Positions 24,152 to 35,440 of a DNA stretch of 64,000 nt are shown here, piece after piece. The position numbers were made by a program, and so were the translations under genes. The notes below the pieces were generated by a model. The model was not told where the DNA came from, made no database searches, and was given only the letters and a program-made list of their open reading frames with translations. The stretch's first letter is position 1, and each line of letters begins with the position of its first letter. Origin of the DNA: a virus; IMG/VR virus record IMGVR_UViG_3300005253_000144, positions 38,175 through 102,174 of that record; one strand, written 5' to 3'.

Positions 24152-24802
24152 TTACTTGGGAAAATCCTTATGCTTAATCTTGGTAATTATGCGGTTGCCG
24201 CGCCGATTAAGTAATTCAACTTCAGGGCGCATCACCATTCCTTCTGCTTGGAAGTCCCCCCAGCGGGACATAAATCCATTCCTGGTTTGCTCCACAGCAG
24301 TATACAAATTGCCTTGGCCGATAATAGGCGTAATTTGCAACCCCAGTTTTTCTGCGACGTCTTCAACGTTTTCGCGTTCTAAGAACATTTCACCGACCTT
24401 TACATCAAAGAGGCAAAAGTCAACACCATCAGAAATGTAATTCCCGCCGCCTTTTTGAATCCGTGCCCCAAACCCTTCGCCGTAGAGACAAACACCAGTG
24501 TCATAATCAAAGGCATTCTGTACGTTTTCCAAAGTGAACACCTCTTGTAATTTGCTTTCCAGGAACGGTGGTATCTGTGCTTTATCGGTCTTACCGCCAA
24601 ATCGTATTCCTTCAGCATCATACATTACTCGAATGTTAGTGCCGTCTACCTTTTCGGTAAATACCCAATTGTTGCTTTTGAGATAGTCGAATTCAGGATG
24701 TGCAAATTCGTCTAACAATGTCTTGTAATTATTAGTTGGGTCTCGCTTGTAAACTGTTGTGATTTTATGATATGGGTACATCGGGTATTTGCGGTCGGGC
24801 AT
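24152..24802 (-). CDS. ATP-dependent RNA ligase (Rnl2-like nucleotidyltransferase domain)
   Basis: Motif I TEKVDGTN, III LYGEGFG, IIIa FCLFDV, IV EGMVMR, V ITKIK. Confidence 0.88.
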   Translation of the reverse strand: MPDRKYPMYPYHKITTVYKRDPTNNYKTLLDEFAHPEFDYLKSNNWVFTEKVDGTNIRVMYDAEGIRFGGKTDKAQIPPFLESKLQEVFTLENVQNAFDYDTGVCLYGEGFGARIQKGGGNYISDGVDFCLFDVKVGEMFLERENVEDVAEKLGLQITPIIGQGNLYTAVEQTRNGFMSRWGDFQAEGMVMRPEVELLNRRGNRIITKIKHKDFPK

Positions 24803-25526
24803 CGTTACTATTGCTCAATTTCCATTATTTGTTCCAGTTCAAAAGTTGCATATTGCCCACCATGTACCTTATGTGCACGCAACTGTGCTGCGATAACAAT
24901 TCCAGTATCGGTCATGCGCACGCCCCCACTCGTGAGCGTTAGAAACTCTACAAATCCTGCCTTGACCATATTTTCTAGGCAATCCCAATCATCATGCTCT
25001 TTAATTACATTTGGTTTCTCTTCGGTGTGTCCTTTGAGGCGTGTTCCATATTTATAGCCGTAGGGAGGTTTTTCAAGAGCAAGGATTGCCCTAGCTTGTA
25101 TATGACCTACAAGTAATGGATGTGTTCTGATATTCACGCGTAGTTTGTTCCGGTCTATTTGCCCCCATTGGTCCAACGCATCTACACAAATGGTTTCAAG
25201 ATAAGCTAACAAACTCCAATGGTCGCGTCCAAATTTTTCAACTGGCACAGTTTCCATGGTGTGAACTCCTCATCATTAACATTCCCGCCAATTGTAGCAC
25301 CTTGGTTAGTATATGTCAATCGGTTTGCCTCTTTAATATACGAAGGCATTTTTTACAAGTCACATTATCCTTTTCGGTTGTCCATAAAGCTTGTCCCAAA
25401 TTTATTGCTCTAGGCCGCTTAAAACAAAGGGCCGACACATGACCATCTGACCTAATATGTGATGCCATATGATAAATCTTGTCATCGTAATATGGGTCAT
25501 TTTTAGGTGACATATTTCATATTGAA

Positions 25527-27158
25527 TCACTGCTCCCGCTCTTTTGCCGACCAAAGCGGCAATAACGATAAATCTTTTCCCTCCCCATCCTTCCCTTGGC
25601 CAGCTTCCCAGCTTTGCAATGCCTTTAATCCTAGGCGCTTACTTGCTAGTTTTAGATAATCCATAGCTATGTCTAGGCCAATGCCGTGCCTACCTAACTT
25701 GCGAGCCACGATAAGCGTTGTGCCAGAGCCGATAAAGGGGTCTAAAACCAAAGATGGCTCAAGCTCAATTTCCAAAACGCCCGCGCCCAAACAATCTGAA
25801 CAAACAATTTCCAGTTTGTCCTCTGGGTCAATTCCTATGCCAGCACACCTATCACAAGGCGCAAATTCCAATGGCCTTTTTCTGGCTCGCTTAAACCATT
25901 CGTCTTGGGTATCCTGTTGATACTTTTTGCGCGCACTCCTTACTCTTGGGAATGCGCGATAGGCATCATCATAATGTTTACAGACAGGACGCCAACCGAG
26001 GGTTTTACTCATTGCTGGCTTTTCCATTGTTCCGCTAGAGCGAGTTCTGCCCAGCTTATGAGTTCGCTCTGATCGTCTGATTTTCATGGCTATCTTCTCA
26101 ACCGTCCTCTCCCAAGGGTTACCGCATTCAGGACATACACCCTTCTCAGATACACCTGCTTTAATGCAAGTTTCTACAAGTGCAGGAGGATAAGTTGCGA
26201 AATGTGCACCTGAATATGGGGCTGTGGCCATTGTCCATACGGAACGTTTGTTGCGGCCTCGTTCCGAAAAATCATTGTCCCTTAATCCTGCATGTGGCTG
26301 GCCGTTCGGCATCACCCCTTCAGAATAACGTTTTTCGTTGTCTCGGTTTCTTAGACCCCAATCTTTCGATGGCTCACGAATGGCATCCGCATCATAGTAA
26401 TACTTCTTGCTCTTTGTGAGCAGGAACAAATACTCATGCGCCTTTGTTGGCCTGTCCGTGACGCTCTCCGGCATCGGGTTCGGCTTGTGCCAAATAATAT
26501 CCGAGCGCAGATACCAGCCATCGGCTTGCAATGCCAGAGCCACGCGCCAGGGGACTCCCATCAGGTCTTTGGGTTTGAGATCTAATTGTTTGCCAGCTCT
26601 GCGGCTATTCTGTTGACCTGATTTATGTGGGGAATTTTGTTGTGCAAACCCCGTTGATCTATTTGTGCCTGGATACTTTGGCTGTCCTTCTCGCAATCCG
26701 CCTTCGTTGTAATCCCCGCCAGCTCCACCACTTCCCGCGTAAGAATCTCCGAGATTTAACCAGAAGGTCGCGTCGTCTCTCAACACCCGCCAAACTTCCC
26801 GGCACCATTCTACGGTGTGGTCAATGTACATTTGCAGTGTCGGTTCGAGGCCGTATGCGCCGCGCCAGGCGTTGCATTTGGTACAAGAGCCGCCATGTAA
26901 TTGCGCAGTAGTTTCCCATCCATCAGGATTGCTTTTTCGCGTATGCCCATGTTGCCAGCGCTTACGTGATGTATAATTCTCGTCTTTGATTTCAGCGCCA
27001 AACCACTCGTGCACACAATCCTTATCGCCCCCGAATATGAATTCCTGCTCGCCAGAATATTTTCTGAGGGAATAGTAAGGGGGGCTGGTCACGCCCATAT
27101 GAACAGACTTATCCGGGAGTGGTATCTGGAAAGCGTTTGCCTGTGCTAGTAACAACAT
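25527..27158 (-). CDS. DNA methyltransferase (N4C/N6A) with Cys-rich insertions
   Basis: VTSPPYY, AHFATYP, LDPFIGSGTT. Confidence 0.9.
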   Translation of the reverse strand: MLLLAQANAFQIPLPDKSVHMGVTSPPYYSLRKYSGEQEFIFGGDKDCVHEWFGAEIKDENYTSRKRWQHGHTRKSNPDGWETTAQLHGGSCTKCNAWRGAYGLEPTLQMYIDHTVEWCREVWRVLRDDATFWLNLGDSYAGSGGAGGDYNEGGLREGQPKYPGTNRSTGFAQQNSPHKSGQQNSRRAGKQLDLKPKDLMGVPWRVALALQADGWYLRSDIIWHKPNPMPESVTDRPTKAHEYLFLLTKSKKYYYDADAIREPSKDWGLRNRDNEKRYSEGVMPNGQPHAGLRDNDFSERGRNKRSVWTMATAPYSGAHFATYPPALVETCIKAGVSEKGVCPECGNPWERTVEKIAMKIRRSERTHKLGRTRSSGTMEKPAMSKTLGWRPVCKHYDDAYRAFPRVRSARKKYQQDTQDEWFKRARKRPLEFAPCDRCAGIGIDPEDKLEIVCSDCLGAGVLEIELEPSLVLDPFIGSGTTLIVARKLGRHGIGLDIAMDYLKLASKRLGLKALQSWEAGQGKDGEGKDLSLLPLWSAKEREQ

Positions 27159-27163
27159 TGAAT

Positions 27164-28528
27164 CTAATCCCCATCATCAGCGCGGCCGCCCATAATAACA
27201 ACTTGCGGTTCAAGGCGCGCTACCCGATTAATAAGCAGGCCGTCCTGAATCGCCATTACATCTTCAATATCCTTATATGCCTGGATAGTTTCATCTGAGG
27301 CAACGCCATGATAAGAAATATTTTTGTCCTCCATGTGCTTTTTGAATTTTGCCTCGGAGTGCACCCGCTTGGCCTCTGTGCGCGAGTAGGGGCGGCCAGC
27401 ACCATGCGCGGATGAAAATAATGCCTCAGGGTTTCCTAGCCCACTAGTTAAATAACTTGGAGACCCGCTCGTACCGGGGATAAGTCCAATCTCATCCTTA
27501 TGTGCTGGCGTTGCGCCCTTGCGATGGACATAATTGCCCTTTGAGTTCAACCAAGCATAATTATGTCGATTGAAAATCGTCCCGGCTACTTGCAATCCAC
27601 TAGAGCGCGCAAATGTAGAGTGGATAATTTCGTGATTGGCAAGAGCATATTCACCCATAAGCTGCATGACCTCCCAATATTCCTTTCCAGCATCTGTATC
27701 CATACGTAACCAACCATGACCCTTTGGAACATTTCTGGTAGTCGCCTTGGTTTCATTTTCGGCCATCTTTGTATAATGCGTTGCCAATTTATGACCCGTG
27801 CCGCGGCTTCCAGAATGTGTGAGCAGGCCTATCCTTTTTACCCTATGGTCCATAGGCAAAAATTCTGGAGACACATTCGCTCGGATTCGTGAAATAAGAA
27901 CTATATCAGCAAAGTGATTTCCGCCGCCGCTTGTGCCCAACTGCCGATTTGCCAAATATTGCAGGGCTTTAACTTTGGGGGCTATATTCCATTGCTCATT
28001 ATCCATGACAGCATGTTTACGCGGGGAATCAAATTCTAAACCCACACCAAACTTTGTAGATGCTTTTAAATAATCTGCGAACATCTTGCGCCTGCTAATA
28101 AACGCATTTGGTGGGATATCATACACACTTAACATGACCATGCAGGAAATGTCGAAACCGATGTAACCTGGTGAAATCGCGTTTTCCGTTTCGATGACCC
28201 CGCCAATGGGTAGGCCGTAACCTTTGTGGGCGTCCGGCATCAGCGCAGCTCTTATTGCGGGCGGTATCCGCGCGCACACTTCCATTTGGTCATAAGCGTT
28301 TTTAGGAATTAGGGCGCCGACTTTTCCAAATGTTGCGATTGGCACGGGCACATCTCGGTATGCTGGAGAAGTATCCTTTCCGAATTTCTTTTCGACCGCC
28401 TCTAATATCTGTTCCGGGTCATTGCCGAGTTCCCCGGTCAGGCTCGCGGCGTACTTGGCAATTTCAGGATACCCGCGCCGTGAATGATATTCCTTTAGCA
28501 ATTCATGCGTGTTGATTCTTTTTGTCAT
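27164..28528 (-). CDS. rtcB: RtcB RNA 3'-phosphate/5'-OH ligase
   Basis: MPDAHKGYGLPIG, GFDISC, GGGNHF, HSGSRG, HRKGAT, SSAHGAGR. Confidence 0.95.
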   Translation of the reverse strand: MTKRINTHELLKEYHSRRGYPEIAKYAASLTGELGNDPEQILEAVEKKFGKDTSPAYRDVPVPIATFGKVGALIPKNAYDQMEVCARIPPAIRAALMPDAHKGYGLPIGGVIETENAISPGYIGFDISCMVMLSVYDIPPNAFISRRKMFADYLKASTKFGVGLEFDSPRKHAVMDNEQWNIAPKVKALQYLANRQLGTSGGGNHFADIVLISRIRANVSPEFLPMDHRVKRIGLLTHSGSRGTGHKLATHYTKMAENETKATTRNVPKGHGWLRMDTDAGKEYWEVMQLMGEYALANHEIIHSTFARSSGLQVAGTIFNRHNYAWLNSKGNYVHRKGATPAHKDEIGLIPGTSGSPSYLTSGLGNPEALFSSAHGAGRPYSRTEAKRVHSEAKFKKHMEDKNISYHGVASDETIQAYKDIEDVMAIQDGLLINRVARLEPQVVIMGGRADDGD

Positions 28529-28547
28529 ATTTAATGAGCCTCCTATC

Positions 28548-28985
28548 TTATTCTGTTTTTATTGTTTTTGTACTCTTTTGAATACGATGAATCATATAAT
28601 GTGCTGATTTATAGGTAATGTCTAACATATGGCGCAATTGTTGTGCTGGAATTCCCCTCTTGCTTATATTCATCATATAAATTGCGATTAGCCATTTATT
28701 CATGGGAATATGAGTGTCTTCAAAAAGCGTGCCAATGGTGACTGTGAAGTTCTTGCGGCAAAAACCGCATCGATATACACCAGGCCGAATTCTATTTTTA
28801 TACTTCGTTCCTGGTTTTGATTCTAGTTTCCATGCGCCTCCGGCACTCCCGCATTTTGAGCAGACAATTCCATTAGGCCATCGGATATCCTCAATAATCT
28901 CGCGGGATTCATCTTCTGATAGCTTCGCAATTTTTATTAAGTCAAGATTAATCAGATAGTTCTGTATTTCTTCTATTAGTGTCAT
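28548..28985 (-). mobile_element. IS1595-family transposase N-terminal fragment (Zn ribbon + HTH, no DDE domain)
   Basis: IRWPNGIVCSKCG...YRCGFCRKNFTVTIGTLFEDTHIP..KW...ITYKSA; ORF ends before the catalytic domain. Confidence 0.8.
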
Positions 28986-29065
28986 TCAATCAAGAATCCT
29001 AATCCTGCGGTCATACCAAAGCCAATGAATAGGATTGAGAATCCTTAATTCCTCTGGCATCATCG

Positions 29066-30817
29066 CTAAATGTCTCCTATCGCATTCTCGTAAAATACAT
29101 CACTGGCGCGTATTTCTTTGGTCCCGGTTATCAACTCTAATATGCGCAATTTACTCAGTGCGTTATTGAACCCGCCGCTGGTTACCTGATAATCCGTCAT
29201 TATGGCTATCATTTCCTTGGATAGGCTCTTCGGATATTCATCACAAAGTACGGCTAATATTCTTCGCTGTGCGCGGCCCAATTTCCGTTTCCAATATTCT
29301 ATCAACTCCTGACCAACGGGTAAAGGCGCGTATTCTTCCCCCAAGGCTTCAAACCCGCTATCCGTGATTATAAACTTTCCGAGGTTATCCACCTCCATAA
29401 ATCCAGAGATTTTAAGATTGCTTAAAGCATTTGCAAACCCTCCGCTATTGATTGAATAACTGGTAAGAATAGCGATTTGTTTCTTGTTCTTTGTGTTTGG
29501 ATGATGCTGTGCAAGAGTTCTTAATATCCGATTCTGCGCACGGGGCAACTTATCACCATCAAAATTTGGGAGCGTATTGTTTGCTATTGGCTGCATACTA
29601 GGGCGAAGTGTGCTGGTCTCTACTTGTGACGCCCTTGCCATCTTCTCCATTACCACTTTGCCACTGGCCTCCTGCTTCTTCATCCCAAGGATTATCTGGT
29701 CAATAGTTTTGGGCAGGTTTACGAATTCCTTTGTAATGGTAGTCAACTTCGTAGATAACTCTTGCAACGCTTCATAGGTTTCTTCAGGAACAAACGGAAC
29801 TCGCACAGGAACTTTGGTTTCAATATTCTTAATTACGGTATTAGGCGTTGCTACTATTTTCTCCGATGCCTTCGCCTTCCGGCGTGCTTTAGCAATATCG
29901 CGTTTCAGTTCTGTGTTCTCGGTCTGTAACTGCACCAATAGGTCGGTTTCCCTTTGCGCCTCCTGGGGCAAATCCCCCATTTGTGAAACCAATGTTAATA
30001 TCGCCTTCGATGCTGGCGGAACTCTCATTTTGAATCGTTCACCTTGTTTGGGATGCGTGCTTTTAACTTTGTCAGAGCGGAACTCCACAACACCTGCCAT
30101 GGAAAGGGCTGCCCCAAATGTATAAAACATTCCAGGTTTCAAATTACGCAACTCCATCCGCTTGGTTTTGCCCATACCCAATAGGTCGCCTGCCCGCTTT
30201 TGGTCAATATCTAAGGCTGTGCGCCCGATAATGATATTGTTTGCTTCGGCCGCGGCGTCTTTATGTAACTTGCTTAATCGCTGCGTGGAAAGGATTCCAG
30301 CGTAGCCACGCTTACGCCCCTGCGACATCAGGGCGATAACCGCCTCCGAACTTTCCGCACTTCCTGCAGAGCGTTCTGGGCAGTAGACATGCGCTTCATC
30401 TAAGATTACCAAGATAGGATGCCAATATTTACGCGGCAAATTCATCAAGCTATCTAAGAACAGCTTCACATAAGTTCTACGGTCAGCTAGTTTCAAATCG
30501 TACAAATCGATAATCGCGCTTATCTCTTTCTCTGCCAATTTGCGCGCTAACAATTTTGCCGTCTTGATAGTGGTGGCCAATTCGCCATCATTGCCAATAA
30601 GAGCAATGGTAATCTCTTCCCTTAATGTTATAAACTCTCCCTCCGGGTCCAAAATAATGATTTGGACATCTGCCGCCGTTCTTTCCGCGATAAGACGTAG
30701 TAGCCAAGACTTTCCCCCGCCGCTGTTTGCTGACACCAGCATACGTGTGTCAATCAGTTTTGGGAGGTCAATTTTTAATTGCTTATCCTTTGCGACTTGC
30801 CCAATTACGAATTGCAT
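29066..30817 (-). CDS. HerA/FtsK-like (DUF87) P-loop ATPase with coiled coil and two C-terminal winged-helix repeats
   Basis: ANSGGGKS, ILDPEGE, ILDEAH, QGRKRG, STQR; duplicated RAQxRIL...SGGFxNALSxL. Confidence 0.85.
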   Translation of the reverse strand: MQFVIGQVAKDKQLKIDLPKLIDTRMLVSANSGGGKSWLLRLIAERTAADVQIIILDPEGEFITLREEITIALIGNDGELATTIKTAKLLARKLAEKEISAIIDLYDLKLADRRTYVKLFLDSLMNLPRKYWHPILVILDEAHVYCPERSAGSAESSEAVIALMSQGRKRGYAGILSTQRLSKLHKDAAAEANNIIIGRTALDIDQKRAGDLLGMGKTKRMELRNLKPGMFYTFGAALSMAGVVEFRSDKVKSTHPKQGERFKMRVPPASKAILTLVSQMGDLPQEAQRETDLLVQLQTENTELKRDIAKARRKAKASEKIVATPNTVIKNIETKVPVRVPFVPEETYEALQELSTKLTTITKEFVNLPKTIDQIILGMKKQEASGKVVMEKMARASQVETSTLRPSMQPIANNTLPNFDGDKLPRAQNRILRTLAQHHPNTKNKKQIAILTSYSINSGGFANALSNLKISGFMEVDNLGKFIITDSGFEALGEEYAPLPVGQELIEYWKRKLGRAQRRILAVLCDEYPKSLSKEMIAIMTDYQVTSGGFNNALSKLRILELITGTKEIRASDVFYENAIGDI

Positions 30818-31201
30818 AATATGCCTCTTTCATTTATTATAACAATTGTTAGTCCCTAAATTTTTCCTTCATGGCTTCCATAAAACCTGGTGGCCCATCA
30901 AAATAAAACTCTGCTTTTATAGCATATGCGTTTTGTAAATACTGTGCCATTTCTTTAATGTCGTGTATGGATGCAGTATGTAGGTCCAGCCGCTTGACAA
31001 TATCTTGCCCCTTCTGGTGCGAAAGGATGAAGACCACAGTATTGCCATGACTTTTTTGGCTATGCCAATCCACGCCCACTTCCATATTCTCACCCAGGAT
31101 TAATTGCAATGCCTTTTTAAGCTGCGCAAATTCTGTCCGTAGTGCTTCGTCCCTAGGGATGAAAAGGTTTTGGAACTTACGCCGGATAAACGCTTTAATT
31201 T

Positions 31202-32605
31202 TCATTGGTAAATCCGTCCCCAAGCTTCGTCCAGCTTTTTGGCACTCCATATATTGGGGACATATTCAATGAGCGGCGCATCATGGTAGCTGCTGATGGC
31301 GGCTGTGCCTTCAACCGCATCCAAGTACATTGAAAATCTACCCTCGCCTTCAACGACTAAAATATCTGGTATCTCGGCCGCGTCAAGCACATCCTTATAC
31401 TGCTCCACAAAAGCGGTATCTACTGAAAGCCTTCCAGCACTCAGCAATATTTTTGGGGTTATATCCTGTTCCTTTTCCTCAAAGTCTGCCCCACGCCCAA
31501 CGTTTTTGAATCCGAGTAGCGTGAGTGGCAAGCCATGTTCTTTACATTCTTCGATTACATAAGAAATCTTATCACTATAATGTGCGCCCACAACAAAATG
31601 GGCAACACCGCGCAGACCAAAGGCATCGTTAAGACCGGCTATATTTTTAACATCGTAGTGATTGTCAAGAGAGAGCGCATATGAACCTGCATATTCTCTT
31701 ACAGCTCGCAGGACTTCATGGCTCCATTTATCGGGCCGGATAAAGGTCGTGAAATTTGGGATGATGTCCAATTCTCTCGCCCTTTTAAGGATGGCCGGGA
31801 AATCTGGATGCAGCGTTGGCTCCCCGCCGCCAATGGCAATTTCAAACACGCCGCGCGCAGATAAGACTTCTAAATATGTTTCGATAGTTTCATAATCGGC
31901 ATGGTTGCCAGCAATGGTGCTGTCTTGATAACAGAAAGCACAATTGGCCGGGCAATAGTTGGTTATCTTCAGGTCAACCAATTCCGGAGTCGCCGAGCGT
32001 AGCAATTCATTCGGCTTTTTATCAAAGGATAACCTTAACTTCGCCCCGGTTACTTGATTAAACAATGTCCACCAATGGCCTGATTTCTTGGCAAGATAAT
32101 TACTGCCATCGACCTCTCCCAGCATTCTTAGTTCCCAATCGATGGTATCCCTGGTCTTATGCTCTCCCCATTCATCCGGGTCATCGCCATTATCATTGCC
32201 GCCCAATACCATAATATCTGGGCGTTGGAGATAATCGCGGAAGTCTTTAATAAATGCGGTTGAAAGGCGTTTTGTATATGCATCGCGCGGGAAGCCTAGG
32301 TGAGATTGATGGTCAACATATGCGCCTTCAATTTCTTCAACTTCCATTTTTTTCCCTACCAATTCAGATATGATAACTGCGGCAAGGTCTTCGCCCATTT
32401 CCTTTACGATGGCTTGATAGACTTGGGCTATGAAATAATCCATTTTGGGTCCTGGGTCAGAAAGCACAAAACATTCCCATCCAAATTCATATCCCATATG
32501 TCCAGGATTAGTGGGCAGGGCAGCTTTCCCCTTTGGCAATATAATGATTGAATGGCTGCTAGATGAATTTGTTGCTAAACCGAGTCTAATATTTGCAAGT
32601 TGCAT
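31202..32605 (-). CDS. Radical SAM protein with N-terminal TNSSSSHS domain
   Basis: CPANCAFC cluster motif, GGGEPTLHP; N-terminal RLGLATNSSSSHS. Confidence 0.88.
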   Translation of the reverse strand: MQLANIRLGLATNSSSSHSIIILPKGKAALPTNPGHMGYEFGWECFVLSDPGPKMDYFIAQVYQAIVKEMGEDLAAVIISELVGKKMEVEEIEGAYVDHQSHLGFPRDAYTKRLSTAFIKDFRDYLQRPDIMVLGGNDNGDDPDEWGEHKTRDTIDWELRMLGEVDGSNYLAKKSGHWWTLFNQVTGAKLRLSFDKKPNELLRSATPELVDLKITNYCPANCAFCYQDSTIAGNHADYETIETYLEVLSARGVFEIAIGGGEPTLHPDFPAILKRARELDIIPNFTTFIRPDKWSHEVLRAVREYAGSYALSLDNHYDVKNIAGLNDAFGLRGVAHFVVGAHYSDKISYVIEECKEHGLPLTLLGFKNVGRGADFEEKEQDITPKILLSAGRLSVDTAFVEQYKDVLDAAEIPDILVVEGEGRFSMYLDAVEGTAAISSYHDAPLIEYVPNIWSAKKLDEAWGRIYQ

Positions 32606-32936: not shown

Positions 32937-32938
32937 AG

Positions 32939-33011
32939 CTGCCACGGAAGGATTTGAACCTTCAACCTCGCGATTAACAGTCGCACGCTCCACCAATTGA
33001 GCTACATGGCA
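32939..33011 (-). tRNA. tRNA-Asn (GUU)
   Basis: Full cloverleaf TGCCATG...CTGTTAA...GGTTCAAATCC...CGTGGCA-G; G73; CCA not encoded. Confidence 0.95.
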
Positions 33012-33012
33012 A

Positions 33013-33180
33013 TGGTGACAGACCGCGACCTCGATTACGGCCAGCACCTCACGAGACGGAGTACGCTACTTTTGAGACCTGTGCTGAATGGCCGCTTCCA
33101 ACACATGGTAGCAATTCCACTGGCGGCCGGGACAGTATAGGAATCTCACTTAAGCCTCACTGGTTTTCCGGCGGCCTGTC
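33013..33180 (-). ncRNA. 168-nt tRNA-like RNA ending in ACCA
   Basis: Terminal stem GACAGGCCGC/GCGGTCTGTC + ACCA; internal arms GGCCGC/GCGGCC and CAGCAC/GTGCTG; exactly fills the tRNA-Met to tRNA-Asn gap. Confidence 0.75.
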
Positions 33181-33182
33181 AA

Positions 33183-33258
33183 TAGCGGAGGCGGGAATCG
33201 AACCCGCGTAGGTCCAGGTTATGAGCCTGGCAAGCAAGCCAACATGCTCAACTCCGCG
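33183..33258 (-). tRNA. tRNA-Met (CAU), initiator-like
   Basis: Cloverleaf with CTCATAA loop, C1xU72 mismatch and A11-U24; anticodon stem CCAGG/CCTGG has only two of the three initiator G-C pairs. Confidence 0.9.
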
Positions 33259-33259
33259 A

Positions 33260-33330
33260 TGTTGAGAGGGCAAGCACATAGGGGTTATGTAAAAATAAAA
33301 ATACTATGTGCCCATTCGTTGGCCCTCTCA
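33260..33330 (-). ncRNA. Small rod-like RNA between tRNA-Pro and tRNA-Met (Y-RNA-like stem)
   Basis: TGAGAGGGC/GCCCTCTCA and GCACATAG/CTATGTGC helices, asymmetric bulge, U-rich apical loop. Confidence 0.55.
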
Positions 33331-33331
33331 G

Positions 33332-33405
33332 TCAGGATGGTAGGATTTGAACCTACGCCCTCCTGGTCCCAAACCAGGCGTTCCACCGGACTGAACTACA
33401 CCCTG
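33332..33405 (-). tRNA. tRNA-Pro (UGG)
   Basis: CAGGGTG...TTTGGGA...GGTTCAAATCC...CATCCTG-A cloverleaf; C1-G72, A73. Confidence 0.95.
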
Positions 33406-33429
33406 AATGTTAGACAAAAGATAGTCTTT

Positions 33430-33696
33430 TTAATTCTCTAGCGAAAGACGGATAATGTACAACTCTTCCTTCATATTCTTTACCTCTTTAACCTGCCTCG
33501 CAATTTTGCCAGCCAAGGGACATAGCTCTGATATAGGCTCTTTTTCACTCCCAGAGGTCGTCGAGGTTAGCTGTATGGATATTGCGTTTTCCAACCGTGT
33601 ACGCAATTCATCAATTGCTGGACGTAACTCAGCCAGTGCATCCTCTAAATATGAAATCTGAGCCGTTACTTGTGATTCTTGTACTGCTTCGTTCAT
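33430..33696 (-). CDS. Small coiled-coil protein inside the RNA cluster
   Basis: 88-aa ORF with AAGGA RBS and heptad pattern. Confidence 0.65.
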   Translation of the reverse strand: MNEAVQESQVTAQISYLEDALAELRPAIDELRTRLENAISIQLTSTTSGSEKEPISELCPLAGKIARQVKEVKNMKEELYIIRLSLEN

Positions 33697-33725
33697 TTTG
33701 ATATCCTTTCAAATAAATTTCGTTT

Positions 33726-33872
33726 AGATACTCAGATGGTGGCGGCAGCCAGGCCTCGCACGGTTTCAACCTGGGTCACTTTCAACATTCGTCTGCCGGC
33801 TATCCTCCCGTGCTCTGGGAGTCTTGATTACTCGTAACGCTTTAGTCGCCTTCCGCCACCACTTGAATATCC
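33726..33872 (-). ncRNA. Structured RNA with tRNA-like 3' end (CCGCC-ACCA)
   Basis: Outer stem GGATATTCA/TGAGTATCT (two G-U pairs on minus strand), inner TGGTGGCGG/CCGCCACCA, CCAGG/CCTGG arm before the acceptor-like strand. Confidence 0.6.
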
Positions 33873-33878
33873 TTCTTA

Positions 33879-34105
33879 TTGGATGCTCACTATGGGCGAG
33901 GAAGGGCTGACACCTATCGCCTTCGCCCATCCTCTCATTCTCTCTGGGCGTTATCCCGCTCTAATCAGGAAAACTTACGTATGCTTTACCGATTGCAGTT
34001 CAAACCCCTGCAACTAGGTAAACAGCCTTGATAGGATTTCCGTTACTAAGGGGCCTCTGTCAGACTAGAGCAACACGCCACTATATGCCCATAGTGAGCA
34101 TCCAA
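33879..34105 (-). ncRNA. 227-nt structured RNA closed by a perfect 19-bp stem
   Basis: ttggatgctcactatgggc (33879-33897) / gcccatagtgagcatccaa (34087-34105); inner helices GCTCTAGTC/GATTAGAGC, TTTACC/GGTAAA, TTGCAG/CTGCAA. Confidence 0.7.
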
Positions 34106-34124
34106 ATGTTAATGTTCTGGGGAG

Positions 34125-34197
34125 ATTGAATATCCAGGAAAGCGGTGGGATGAAATGTTGGCCGCATCCCATCCCGCCGCCGTCTCGGACATTCAAT
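34125..34197 (-). ncRNA. Small structured RNA/hairpin
   Basis: ATTGAATGTCC/GGATATTCAAT 11-bp stem (G-U only on minus strand), inner TGGGATG/CATCCCA. Confidence 0.55.
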
Positions 34198-34201
34198 TTG
34201 T

Positions 34202-34256
34202 GAGGGGGAAGGCCAGCTAACAAAGATTGTAAGTCTAATGCTTAGCCTTCCCCCTC
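34202..34256. ncRNA. 12-bp GC-rich hairpin with structured loop
   Basis: gagggggaaggc/gccttccccctc perfect inverted repeat. Confidence 0.5.
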
Positions 34257-34294
34257 TGTTGTAAACAAGGGCTTCCCTGCCCTTGCATACTGTG

Positions 34295-34456
34295 CGGGTA
34301 TTGTGATTAACGATTGCGCCAATTTCTATACCGATGCTCTATCGACTGAGCTACGGACCCCAATATAAACAAACCATTCTTGATTTGCTTATGGAGGGTC
34401 CAGTGGGACTCAAACCCACGACCTTCGGTTCTCATTGCTGTCGTTTATCACACCCG
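34295..34456 (-). ncRNA. Circularly permuted tRNA-like RNA (YrlA/Y-RNA-type architecture)
   Basis: tRNA 3' half with CCA (34429-34392) precedes a 31-nt hairpin linker and then the 5' half (34360-34330); acceptor GGGTCCG/TGGACCC; anticodon arm replaced by a long terminal duplex. Confidence 0.85.
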
Positions 34457-34519
34457 TGGGTGCTGACGCTATTGGAGTAATACGCTTATCTGATTCTTAA
34501 GCGGAGGCTCACAATAACG

Positions 34520-35275
34520 TTACTCCTTAATTTCTCGGGTCTCGATATAGGCAAACAGCTTTGCGGCCATGCCGATGCTATCAGGTTTTGTTTCGATGTC
34601 ATTGGCACGCTGCCGCGCCTTTTTGACTTCATATAACAAATTGTCAAGGCGCCCCAATCGGTCCCGCTTGTCCACAATGGTTATCATACCGGATTGGCTG
34701 ACGGTTTCCCATTCGCCAACTTTGGCATCCTCGTTGTAGGGTTGTACCTGCGCCGGATGTTCAAGCGTGGCCTCATACAAGACATGGGTTTTCATTTGTT
34801 TCTTCATTCGGTTGGTAATAACCGGGTCAGAAACATAGATACCCTTTTGCTCATCGAAATCCCATTTTTGACCGGGAGGAAGCGTGGGGATGGCTTCATA
34901 AACCCTGCGTAATTCTGCCAGCTTCCCTTCCAGATTCAGCAATGCTGTGGCTGGCAATTCTCCAAGCAGTGGCGTGCCATCAATTAATATCGTGTCCCTA
35001 GCTTCGGTATTGGCAATTTCTTTACCAACCGATACGTCAATCCAGGCACCGACTTGCTCAAAGACGCGCGCCAACTCTGCCTCTACCGTAGTAGCAAGTT
35101 CAGTGTGCTCTTCCGGGTAAGTATCCTCTCCCTCAACAATCAACTGATATTTGCGGAACTGCCCCAAGAAATGGGCTTGTCCCGCATCAAATAATCCCCG
35201 GACCTCATTGATTATTGCTGTCGCCTTACCTCGCAAATCCGGTTCAACCGCTAATAGTTCGTACAACTTTGTCAT
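34520..35275 (-). CDS. Helical 251-aa protein of unknown function embedded in the ncRNA operon
   Basis: AAGGAG RBS; MTKLYELLAVE start, LPATALLNLE, YEATLEHPAQV, VKKARQRAN motifs; I recognise the style as a widespread uncharacterised family but cannot confirm a name. Confidence 0.85.
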   Translation of the reverse strand: MTKLYELLAVEPDLRGKATAIINEVRGLFDAGQAHFLGQFRKYQLIVEGEDTYPEEHTELATTVEAELARVFEQVGAWIDVSVGKEIANTEARDTILIDGTPLLGELPATALLNLEGKLAELRRVYEAIPTLPPGQKWDFDEQKGIYVSDPVITNRMKKQMKTHVLYEATLEHPAQVQPYNEDAKVGEWETVSQSGMITIVDKRDRLGRLDNLLYEVKKARQRANDIETKPDSIGMAAKLFAYIETREIKE

Positions 35276-35411: not shown

Positions 35412-35440
35412 AATATATCACTTACGCTATATATAGTCAA
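35412..35440 (-). promoter_or_regulatory. sigma70-type promoter with TATAGC box heading the ncRNA/tRNA operon
   Basis: TTGACT-ATATATAGCGTAAGTGA (17 nt)-TATATT. Confidence 0.75.

What the first reader, a model, noticed from the sequence alone, without database searches (positions are those of the whole stretch)
34295..34456. Circularly permuted tRNA with encoded CCA and a compensatory elbow pair
Seen (minus strand): ACCGA-AGGTC-GTGGG-TTTGAGT-CCCAC-TGGACCC-T-CCA (3' half), then a 31-nt linker forming an 11-bp hairpin, then GGGTCCG-TA-GCTC-AGTCGATA-GAGC-A-TCGGT (5' half). The near-universal G19-C56 pair is swapped to A19-U56, which argues for selection on the L-shape. The anticodon stem runs on into a long interrupted duplex (CAAT/ATTG, AACGA/TCGTT, GTGAT/ATCAC, CGGGT/ACCCG). 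Established: this T-acceptor-D order is that of YrlA Y RNAs; permutation also occurs in two-piece tmRNA and in algal/archaeal permuted tRNAs. Inference: linker removal would give a two-piece, CCA-ended, anticodon-less tRNA; alternatively RtcB could join it into a mature tRNA.
Basis: partly seen in the sequence, partly recalled or inferred. Interest (0 to 1): 0.85.

Follow-up and report, generated by a model that had tools for sequence, protein, structure and literature searches.

The report
Phage tRNA-mimic RNA beside DUF7873
The flagged stretch is a real RNA shaped like a transfer RNA with its two halves in swapped order and no anticodon; it belongs to a widespread, apparently undescribed phage RNA family that always follows one unknown protein gene (DUF7873) rather than Ro60, the partner of the known look-alikes.

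Summary
It is not a chance fold or a misassembly. An independent 2024 sediment assembly carries the same stretch, and its one change inside the RNA turns G7.U66 into A7-U66.

The element lies 90 nt downstream of a DUF7873 gene in a 102-kb marine-sediment phage. A covariance model built here finds the same permuted T arm, 7-bp acceptor and D arm module downstream of 85 of 87 DUF7873 genes from phages of very different hosts.
- 94% of the pair cells are paired, and 20 of 21 pairs show compensatory changes.
- CCA follows the discriminator in 59 of 77 members, and C74 in 77 of 77.
- The linker varies from 3 to 143 nt.
- The leader before +1 reads U-R-U.

This pattern fits RNase P cutting and 3' trimming to a two-piece, CCA-ended mimic, as shown experimentally for M. 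smegmatis YrlA. Processing is inferred here, not shown.

It is YrlA-like in plan but fails YrlA membership: 33 against 69 bits, no Ro60, no Ro-binding motif. RtcB-made mature tRNA is not supported. This scan has already met the family in at least 146 genomes.

The parts
34520..35275 (-). DUF7873 protein gene (251 aa), the invariable upstream neighbour of the RNA
   Evidence: Pfam PF25283, E 4.6e-69. Relatives in 75 cultured phages and 268 IMG/VR stretches. AF2 model pLDDT 88 with no convincing known fold.
34430..34456 (-). 5' strand of the interrupted closing duplex (CGGGT, GTGAT, AACGA, CAAT) plus the internal-loop bases GAGA
   Evidence: MFE fold. Flank-flank duplex z -2.7 here; family median z -2.3.
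34420..34429 (-). Anticodon-stem-like strand ACCGA (tRNA positions 39-43) and variable loop AGGTC
   Evidence: Pairs with TCGGT at 34330-34334. All five pairs of this helix covary in the family.
34403..34419 (-). T arm GTGGG-TTTGAGT-CCCAC, with U56 instead of C56
   Evidence: Helix 99.2% paired in 76 distinct sequences.
34392..34402 (-). Acceptor 3' strand TGGACCC, discriminator U73, encoded CCA
   Evidence: CCA in 59 of 77 members and C74 in 77 of 77. The window's three ordinary tRNA genes encode no CCA.
34361..34391 (-). 31-nt linker forming a 12-bp hairpin; the proposed excised spacer
   Evidence: Linker length ranges from 3 to 143 nt in the family and is conserved only at its two ends.
34354..34360 (-). 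Acceptor 5' strand GGGTCCG (G+1 at 34360)
   Evidence: 7 bp with 34396-34402. Helix 99.6% paired and all 7 pairs covary. The natural variant G7>A keeps the pair.
34336..34353 (-). U8 A9 and the D arm GCTC-AGTCGATA-GAGC, with G18 A19
   Evidence: A19 matches U56; elbow covariation.
34295..34335 (-). A26, anticodon-stem-like strand TCGGT (27-31) and the 3' strand of the closing duplex (ATTG, TCGTT, ATCAC, ACCCG)
35412..35440 (-). Promoter-like site upstream of the DUF7873 gene (TTGACT-17-TATATT with TG); a possible start of a shared transcript
   Evidence: Consensus scan only, at the number expected by chance. No terminator-like site on the minus strand between 33300 and 35600.

Best explanation
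The stretch encodes a non-coding tRNA mimic of the YrlA plan. Its T arm, 7-bp acceptor stem and D arm fold into a tRNA-like L. The position of the anticodon arm is taken by a long interrupted helix made from the RNA's two ends. It is one member (here with a single tRNA-like module) of a large phage and bacterial RNA family that is always encoded just downstream of a DUF7873 gene, usually inside phage tRNA gene clusters, and that does not travel with Ro60.

Proposed mechanism, inferred and not shown. The RNA is made together with DUF7873 and is handled by the host's tRNA enzymes. RNase P cuts before G+1 (34360). Exonucleases trim the linker back to the encoded CCA (A76 at 34392). The result is a nicked, two-piece, CCA-ended, anticodon-less tRNA look-alike held together by the acceptor and closing helices. 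DUF7873 probably binds it, by analogy with Ro60 on Y RNA, to form a particle that engages tRNA-binding factors. The most plausible role is as an uncleavable decoy or tether in the phage-host contest over tRNAs.

Shown: sequence, fold conservation, elbow covariation, linkage to DUF7873, absence of Ro60. Inferred: processing, protein binding, biological role.
For: Structure and family.
- Model R1 hits 85 of 87 DUF7873 loci downstream of the gene on the same strand at 42-88 bits. The other two loci are cut off just after the gene.
- 94.2% of cells are paired against 60.5% in shuffles and 34-50% when the partner is slid. 20 of 21 pairs change on both sides.
- Elbow: 62 of 66 seven-base D loops have G18/U55 and G19/C56. 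All departures are matched: A19-U56 in the window and L014, U19-A56 in L012, A18 with G55 in L010/L011, L012 and L076.
- All 77 re-joined elements are called tRNA by ARAGORN.

Processing signature.
- The 7-bp acceptor is universal.
- CCA in 59/77, C74 in 77/77, linker 3-143 nt.
- Leader: -3 U 69%, -2 purine 91%, -1 U 58%, +1 G 69%.
- The element keeps CCA although the window's three tRNA genes lack it.
- Precedent: M. smegmatis YrlA, also with a 7-bp acceptor stem, is cut by RNase P in vivo and in vitro, carries CCA, and stays as two halves (PMC4201824; 10.1101/312249).

Not Ro60-dependent.
- TROVE is absent from the own phage, which is 91% complete.
- TROVE is present in 1 of 5 cultured phages and 2 of 50 IMG/VR records, and in 0 of 20 that are at least 90% complete.

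tRNA context and decoy idea.
- 55 of 87 loci hold at least one ordinary tRNA gene within the fetched flanks (2.5-5 kb either side).
- The decoy idea for YrlA is in print (PMC7790460).

Reality of the DNA: an independent assembly carries it, with a pair-preserving change.
Against: There is no transcript, end-mapping, binding or phenotype datum for any member.

In 18 of 77 members CCA is replaced (CTA, CTG, CAG and others), and some linkers are only 3-6 nt. A closed acceptor loop may therefore be the working form in part of the family.

In the window the base at -1 is G, not the common U, and the linker hairpin stacks on the acceptor stem. Both could hinder RNase P.

DUF7873 has no recognisable RNA-binding fold, and its binding to the RNA rests on gene neighbourhood alone.

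An earlier check within this scan priced the 'protein binds RNA, one Ro60-independent unit' reading at only 22 in 100.

My 80 IMG/VR loci are the closest relatives of this protein, so the near-100% linkage may not hold for distant DUF7873 genes.

The covariance alignment is fitted to the model, which inflates the pairing percentages somewhat.
Confidence: 0.55

Rival explanations
1. Uncut tRNA mimic. The acceptor stem stays closed by the linker or loop, as in most YrlA RNAs. The conserved C74-C75-A76 and U-R-U bases are loop contacts for a partner (DUF7873, RNase P as a sponge target, or another CCA-reading factor), not processing signals.
For: Some members have loops of only 7-10 nt in all. 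18 of 77 lack CCA but keep C74. In the window and in L003, L004, L006, L022, L024 and L035 the linker forms a hairpin that pairs part of the CCA. Wang et al. state that most YrlA RNAs are closed, permuted tRNA look-alikes.
Against: A 3-143 nt range of linker length, with conservation only at the two junctions, is what a discarded spacer looks like. The 7-bp acceptor stem is the feature that made M. smegmatis YrlA an RNase P substrate.
Confidence: 0.25
2. Cis-acting end-maker for the DUF7873 mRNA or the tRNA-cluster transcript. The tRNA-like fold serves as an RNase P cutting point and leaves the upstream message with a protected, tRNA-like 3' end, as mascRNA does for MALAT1. There would be no trans function of its own.
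For: The RNA is always on the same strand, 90-350 nt after the DUF7873 stop. No terminator-like site is seen on the minus strand around it, and the only promoter-like site at a suitable place lies upstream of the gene. RNase P-made 3' ends at tRNA-like structures are known (cited).
Against: Selection on the elbow pairs, the D arm and a long closing helix goes beyond what an RNase P site needs. Earlier notes of this scan describe bacterial copies as separate promoter-to-terminator units (not checked here).
Confidence: 0.12
3. Ordinary YrlA Y RNA that works with a Ro60 (Rsr) supplied by the host or by a missing part of the phage genome.
For: Best Rfam family is YrlA. The phage record is 91% complete, so up to 9% is unseen. 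Rhizobium phage RHph_Y65 carries both the DUF7873-RNA pair and a TROVE gene 5.3 kb away.
Against: The score is 33.1 against the gathering score of 69, and only the tRNA-like core (model 23-85) matches. The GNCGAAN0-1G Ro-site motif is absent in the window and present in only 6 of 77 members, against 1.7 expected. TROVE is in 0 of 20 near-complete related phages. The constant neighbour is DUF7873, not Ro60.
Confidence: 0.05
4. True permuted tRNA gene. The ends are cut and joined, for example by the phage RtcB at 27164-28528, to restore an anticodon loop. RNase P and 3' trimming then open the acceptor end, giving a decoding tRNA.
For: RtcB and a second RNA ligase are encoded 6-10 kb away. The seven bases after TCGGT (AUAGAAA) have the form of an anticodon loop with U33. 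Re-joined halves are called tRNA by ARAGORN. The idea is raised for YrlA by Wang et al..
Against: RtcB is present in 1 of 5 cultured and 6 of 50 IMG/VR carriers, and in 1 of 20 near-complete ones. The bases that would form the loop are instead paired into a closing helix in most members. The 'anticodons' obtained on re-joining scatter over at least 10 amino acids, plus stop and undetermined calls. The internal loops (4x6 and 3x6 nt around a 4-bp helix) are not a bulge-helix-bulge motif, and no such splicing endonuclease has been reported in bacteria.
Confidence: 0.02
5. Chance resemblance or assembly artefact.
For: None found.
Against: E 4e-11, z -4.4, 85 homologous loci and an independent contig.
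Confidence: 0.01

Closest known systems
YrlA (Y RNA-like A, Rfam RF02553), above all the Mycobacterium smegmatis form (Chen et al. 2014, PMC4201824; Wang et al. 2018, bioRxiv 10.1101/312249)
   Same: Same topology: ends paired in a stem, then T arm, acceptor stem, D arm. Same tRNA elbow contacts. The M. smegmatis form has a 7-bp acceptor stem, is cut by RNase P, carries CCA and persists as two halves. That is the fate proposed here.
   Different: No Ro60/Rsr gene, no GNCGAAN0-1G Ro-site motif, and a score below half the Rfam gathering score. The partner gene is DUF7873. The CCA is encoded rather than added, and a long hairpin linker is present. The element sits in a phage tRNA cluster.
Two-piece (permuted) tmRNA of alpha- and beta-proteobacteria (Rfam RF01850 and relatives)
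   Same: The permuted gene order is T arm, acceptor 3' strand-CCA, discarded spacer, acceptor 5' strand. The weak local hits of RF01850 cover exactly that part.
   Different: No tag reading frame or pseudoknots. ARAGORN calls no tmRNA. G3.U70 alanine identity is present in only 2 of 76 members. A full D arm is present.
Circularly permuted tRNA genes of the red alga Cyanidioschyzon merolae and some archaea (Soma et al. 2007, as cited)
   Same: The 3' half is encoded before the 5' half, and the acceptor end is closed by an intervening sequence that RNase P and 3' processing open.
   Different: Those mature through a bulge-helix-bulge cut and ligation into decoding tRNAs. Here there is no such motif, no conserved anticodon and no consistent ligase.
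mascRNA/MALAT1-type tRNA-like structures cut by RNase P (cited)
   Same: A tRNA-like fold used by RNase P outside a tRNA.
   Different: Those are not permuted, are eukaryotic, and have no dedicated protein gene.

Membership tests
YrlA (RF02553) | Permuted tRNA-like module: T arm, acceptor stem, D arm between paired ends | tested here: met
YrlA (RF02553) | Score at or above Rfam's gathering score (69 bits) over the whole model | tested here: not met
   33.1 bits, model positions 23-85 of 114 only. Relatives score 29-36 bits.
YrlA (RF02553) | GNCGAAN0-1G motif near the 5' end (proposed Ro60 site; Chen et al. 2014) | tested here: not met
   Absent from the window's 5' flank. Present in 6 of 77 family members against 1.7 expected by shuffling.
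YrlA (RF02553) | Ro60/TROVE gene within about 4 kb on the same strand | tested here: not met
   No TROVE in the 102-kb phage record. Present in 1 of 5 cultured and 2 of 50 metagenomic carriers.
YrlA (RF02553) | Bound by Rsr in cells | not testable with these tools
   Needs immunoprecipitation.
DUF7873-associated tRNA-mimic RNA (provisional family of this scan; not in Rfam 15) | Encoded directly downstream of a DUF7873 gene on the same strand | tested here: met
   Core starts 90 nt after the stop codon. Same arrangement in 85 of 87 loci.
DUF7873-associated tRNA-mimic RNA (provisional family of this scan; not in Rfam 15) | Match to a covariance model of the family core | tested here: met
   52.8 bits, E 4e-11. 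The window was one of the 53 seed rows, so it matches partly by construction. L027 and L030, not in the seed, score 72 and 58 bits.
DUF7873-associated tRNA-mimic RNA (provisional family of this scan; not in Rfam 15) | Two tandem permuted modules in one RNA (as earlier notes describe for most members) | tested here: not met
   Second-best hit in 33400-34700 is 4.9 bits with filters off. This member has one module followed by other hairpins.
Two-piece tmRNA | G3.U70 alanine identity, tag reading frame, pseudoknots | tested here: not met
   G3-C70 in the window. U70.G3 in 2 of 76 members. No tmRNA by ARAGORN. RF01850 scores 16 against 84 bits.
Permuted tRNA gene maturing to a decoding tRNA | Bulge-helix-bulge motif at the paired ends and a restored, conserved anticodon loop | tested here: not met
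   Internal loops are 4x6 and 3x6 nt. Anticodon calls on re-joining are scattered.
Permuted tRNA gene maturing to a decoding tRNA | Ligated junction and aminoacylation in vivo | not testable with these tools
   Needs RNA-seq or acid gels.

The most novel reading that the evidence does not exclude
DUF7873 and this RNA form a new, Ro60-independent ribonucleoprotein. Its RNA is cut by RNase P into a two-piece, CCA-ended, anticodon-less tRNA. Phages carry it in their tRNA clusters to neutralise or hijack host factors that read the tRNA elbow and acceptor end, for example tRNA-directed defence nucleases or acceptor-end toxins.
Probability: 0.25. Interest if true: 0.85.

Novelty: new variant of a known kind. 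Interest (0 to 1): 0.62.

Why it matters
Y RNAs of the YrlA type are the only described cellular RNAs with this inside-out tRNA plan, and they are defined by their partner Ro60. Here the same plan recurs in phages of hosts as different as Rhizobium, Vibrio, Gordonia and Arthrobacter, and in uncultured phages, with a different and wholly uncharacterised protein neighbour and almost never with Ro60.

If the pair is a particle, it would be a second class of tRNA-mimic ribonucleoprotein, and it sits exactly where phages keep their tRNA genes. That would bear on how phages cope with host attacks on tRNAs and on what the tRNA-like domain of Y RNAs is for, which is still unknown.

The family also offers a natural test of RNase P action on permuted substrates. 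Several cultured phages carry it, so the question is directly testable.

Tried and rejected
Searches that found nothing.
- Exact 26-mer search of viral contigs: no match.
- Single-protein search for related viral loci: none confirmed. It succeeded only with an alignment.
- blastn of the region against cultured phages: no match.
- PHROGs, PADLOC and NCBIfam for DUF7873: nothing usable.
- PDB sequence profile search: 0 hits.
- Foldseek against PDB and BFVD: no match at E <= 0.001.
- VIA-align wide search: best Z 8.4 to a designed helical protein, which is within the range the tool calls common for helical models. The fold stays unassigned.
- ESM Atlas: only DUF7873 clusters.

Sequencing runs. 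No RNA holder is listed, so expression and RNA ends could not be examined. Contigs cannot show RNA ends.

Second permuted module in the window: none.

Encoded CCA as a copy of the phage's tRNA-gene habit: rejected for this window, where 0 of 3 tRNA genes encode CCA. Across loci the link is weak: 93/126 against 15/33 neighbouring tRNAs with CCA.

Literature.
- No paper in the held library mentions DUF7873 or a permuted tRNA-like RNA of phages outside the Ro60 context.

I did not run complex prediction, because it cannot take RNA.

Full report
**The observation.** From 5' to 3':
- a five-base strand ACCGA (34429-34425) and a five-base variable loop;
- a T arm GTGGG-TTTGAGT-CCCAC;
- the acceptor 3' strand TGGACCC, a discriminator U and CCA (34394-34392);
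- a 31-nt linker (34391-34361);
- the acceptor 5' strand GGGTCCG (34360-34354), then U8 A9;
- a D arm GCTC-AGTCGATA-GAGC, A26, and TCGGT (34334-34330).

The minimum-energy fold of 34285-34470 forms every one of these helices, a 12-bp hairpin in the linker and a long interrupted helix closing the RNA at 34456/34295. Its energy is -63.2 kcal/mol, z -4.4, and none of 200 shuffles folds as well. ARAGORN and Rfam at gathering thresholds see only the three ordinary tRNA genes at 32938-33405. At a relaxed threshold the best family is YrlA: 33.1 bits against a gathering score of 69, E 4.5e-5, covering model positions 23-85, which is the tRNA-like core only.

**Where it lies.** The window is part of a 102-kb viral record, 91% complete by CheckV, from marine sediment. 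The RNA core starts 90 nt after the stop codon of a 251-aa gene on the same strand (34520-35275). That gene is a full-length match to Pfam DUF7873. Three tRNA genes follow about 1 kb further on. RtcB (27164-28528) and an RNA ligase (24152-24802) lie 6-10 kb away. No TROVE (Ro60) domain is found anywhere in the record.

**It is a family.**
- tblastn finds DUF7873 in 75 cultured phages of Vibrio, Rhizobium, Gordonia, Klebsiella, Serratia, Arthrobacter and others.
- In all six that I fetched, the gene sits in or next to a tRNA cluster and is followed by 300-600 nt without annotation. In five of those gaps Rfam gives a sub-threshold YrlA or permuted-tmRNA hit. In the sixth, L004, reading the sequence and model R1 show the same element.
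- A search of viral contigs with an alignment of the proteins gave 268 relatives, of which the best 80 were kept.
- A simple descriptor of my own asked for a T arm, a seven-base strand complementary to a seven-mer up to 200 nt downstream, then a D arm. It found the module 100-350 nt after the gene in nearly all loci.
- A covariance model built from 53 of them hits 85 of 87 loci at 42-88 bits, always downstream and on the gene's strand. This includes two loci my descriptor had missed. The two without a hit end just after the gene.
- 55 of the 87 loci hold at least one ordinary tRNA gene within the fetched flanks, 2.5-5 kb on either side.

**Structure is under selection.** On 76 distinct sequences:
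- 94.2% of pair cells are standard pairs, against 60.5% after shuffling and 34-50% when the partner is slid by one to three columns.
- 20 of 21 pairs show changes on both sides.
- The acceptor stem is 99.6% paired and all seven of its pairs covary.

The alignment is fitted to the model and part of the seed was chosen for pairing, so these figures lean upward. The slide control and the non-seed hits argue that the signal is real.

Of 66 seven-base D loops, 62 have G18/U55 and G19/C56. Every exception is matched on the other side: A19 with U56 (L014, and the window with its eight-base loop), U19 with A56 (L012), and A18 with G55 (L010/L011, L012, L076). No unmatched single change is seen. The window and L014 share the same T stem and may represent one event. 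The L shape and its elbow are therefore maintained, as in the crystal structure of Salmonella YrlA.

**The acceptor end.**
- CCA follows the discriminator in 59 of 77 distinct members, and C74 is present in all 77. The discriminator itself varies (U 32, G 20, C 14, A 11).
- The linker between CCA and +1 ranges from 3 to 143 nt and is conserved only at its edges. It is A-rich after CCA. Before +1 it reads U at -3 (69%), a purine at -2 (91%) and U at -1 (58%). +1 is G in 69%.
- The window's three ordinary tRNA genes do not encode CCA, so the CCA here is not simply the phage's habit. Across loci the link with neighbouring tRNA genes is weak.

A seven-pair acceptor stem, a retained CCA, a U-rich leader with U at -1 and a spacer of free length are together what one expects of a substrate cut by RNase P and trimmed back to CCA. 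The preference of bacterial RNase P for U(-1) and its pairing with C74 and C75 are recalled from established work, not tested here. The precedent is experimental. M. smegmatis YrlA, the one YrlA with a seven-pair acceptor stem, is cut by RNase P in vitro and in vivo, ends in CCA, and is recovered as two halves bound to Rsr.

Against this reading:
- 18 members lack the full CCA.
- Some loops are very short.
- In the window the base at -1 is G.
- In the window the linker hairpin stacks on the acceptor stem.

I therefore give the cut, two-piece form about even odds and keep the closed form as the main rival.

**What it is not.**
- *Not YrlA by membership.* It has half the gathering score. The GNCGAAN0-1G motif is absent in the window and present in 6 of 77 members against 1.7 expected. 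TROVE is absent from the phage, present in 1 of 5 cultured carriers and 2 of 50 metagenomic ones, and in none of the 20 that are at least 90% complete.
- *Not a tmRNA.* There is no tag or pseudoknots, and G3.U70 occurs in 2 of 76 members.
- *Unlikely to mature into a decoding tRNA.* RtcB occurs in 1 of 5 and 6 of 50 carriers. The flanks pair with each other rather than forming a loop: median z -2.3, and 88% of members below -1. When the halves are re-joined with seven natural flank bases, all 77 are called tRNA by ARAGORN, but the 'anticodons' scatter over at least 10 amino acids, plus stop and undetermined calls.
- *Not a misassembly.* A contig from a different study (2024) spans the whole 701 nt with eight substitutions. 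The only one inside the RNA, at 34354, changes G7.U66 to A7-U66.

**The protein.** An AlphaFold2 model from 49 sequences is confident (pLDDT 87.9, pTM 0.78). It has four long helices and a sheet with two long hairpin strands. Neither sequence profiles nor fold searches give a convincing relative, so it is not a Ro60-like ring by any test I could run. Conserved polar residues (H5, E6, D80, N89, E116, D141, H173, Q176, K218, R221, N225) would suit an RNA-binding or catalytic protein. That is inference only.

**Earlier work of this scan.** The same gene-RNA pair has been reported by other agents in at least 146 genomes, usually with two permuted modules in one RNA of 330-500 nt. The window's member has a single module. 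A later check there accepted the observation but priced the 'protein binds RNA as one Ro60-independent unit' reading at 22 in 100, for want of any transcript or binding datum. I share that caution.

**Novelty and verdict.** In the library I could search, no paper mentions DUF7873 or a Ro60-independent phage RNA of this plan. Rfam 15 has no family for it. One possibly relevant paper, Burroughs and Aravind 2016, could not be read.

The finding is real. It is a new variant of the YrlA kind of tRNA mimic with a different partner gene. The RtcB idea is not supported.

Noticed in passing
window 33881-34103 (-): A 17-bp perfect long-range helix (GGATGCTCACTATGGGC at 34103-34087 with GCCCATAGTGAGCATCC at 33897-33881) encloses about 190 nt of non-coding sequence. 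It is a candidate structured RNA downstream of the tRNA mimic, possibly part of the same long RNA.
   Followed up: no
window 33737-33860 (-): About 124 nt whose ends pair (GGTGGCGG with CCGCCACC) and are followed by A, so the 3' end reads GCCGCC-A-CCA. It has an internal GGTTGAAACC T-loop-like hairpin. It looks like a second, non-permuted tRNA-like RNA and is not called by ARAGORN or Rfam.
   Followed up: no
window 34125-34198 (both strands): A long near-perfect hairpin that draws spurious plant and animal microRNA-model hits (28 bits and below). There is no U tract after it.
   Followed up: no
window 32938-33405 (-): The three phage tRNA genes (Asn, Met, Pro) encode no CCA. The Met gene scores only 34 bits on the tRNA model, with an odd D arm.
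   Followed up: partly
window 24152-32605 (-): A cluster of RNA ligase, DNA methylase, RtcB, an IS1595-type zinc-ribbon protein, a HerA/DUF87-like ATPase and a radical SAM protein lies upstream of the tRNA region. It may be an RNA-repair or counter-defence block.
   Followed up: no
L005 3815-3886; L031 4255-4326; L017 3510-3592; L076 3337-3411: Some carriers hold a second permuted module near the first (42-57 bits). In Arthrobacter phage Racecar the second copy has ACCA while the main one has UCUG.
   Followed up: partly
L037, L060, L075, L051, L049, L015, L036, L027 flanks: In one subfamily the outer helix carries a conserved internal loop, with AGUA on the 5' strand and GAAAG on the 3' strand. 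This resembles a sarcin-ricin (bulged-G) motif. The window's member lacks it.
   Followed up: partly
L006 (Rhizobium phage RHph_Y65), record 139762-140505: This phage has the DUF7873-RNA pair and also a TROVE (Ro60-like) gene 5.3 kb downstream and an RtcB. It is a natural case for asking whether the two systems are separate.
   Followed up: no
L059 3392-3602; L062 3968-4141; L039 2907-3064; L078 3529-3689: Here the linkers between CCA and +1 are 91-143 nt long. The contents of these inserts were not examined.
   Followed up: no
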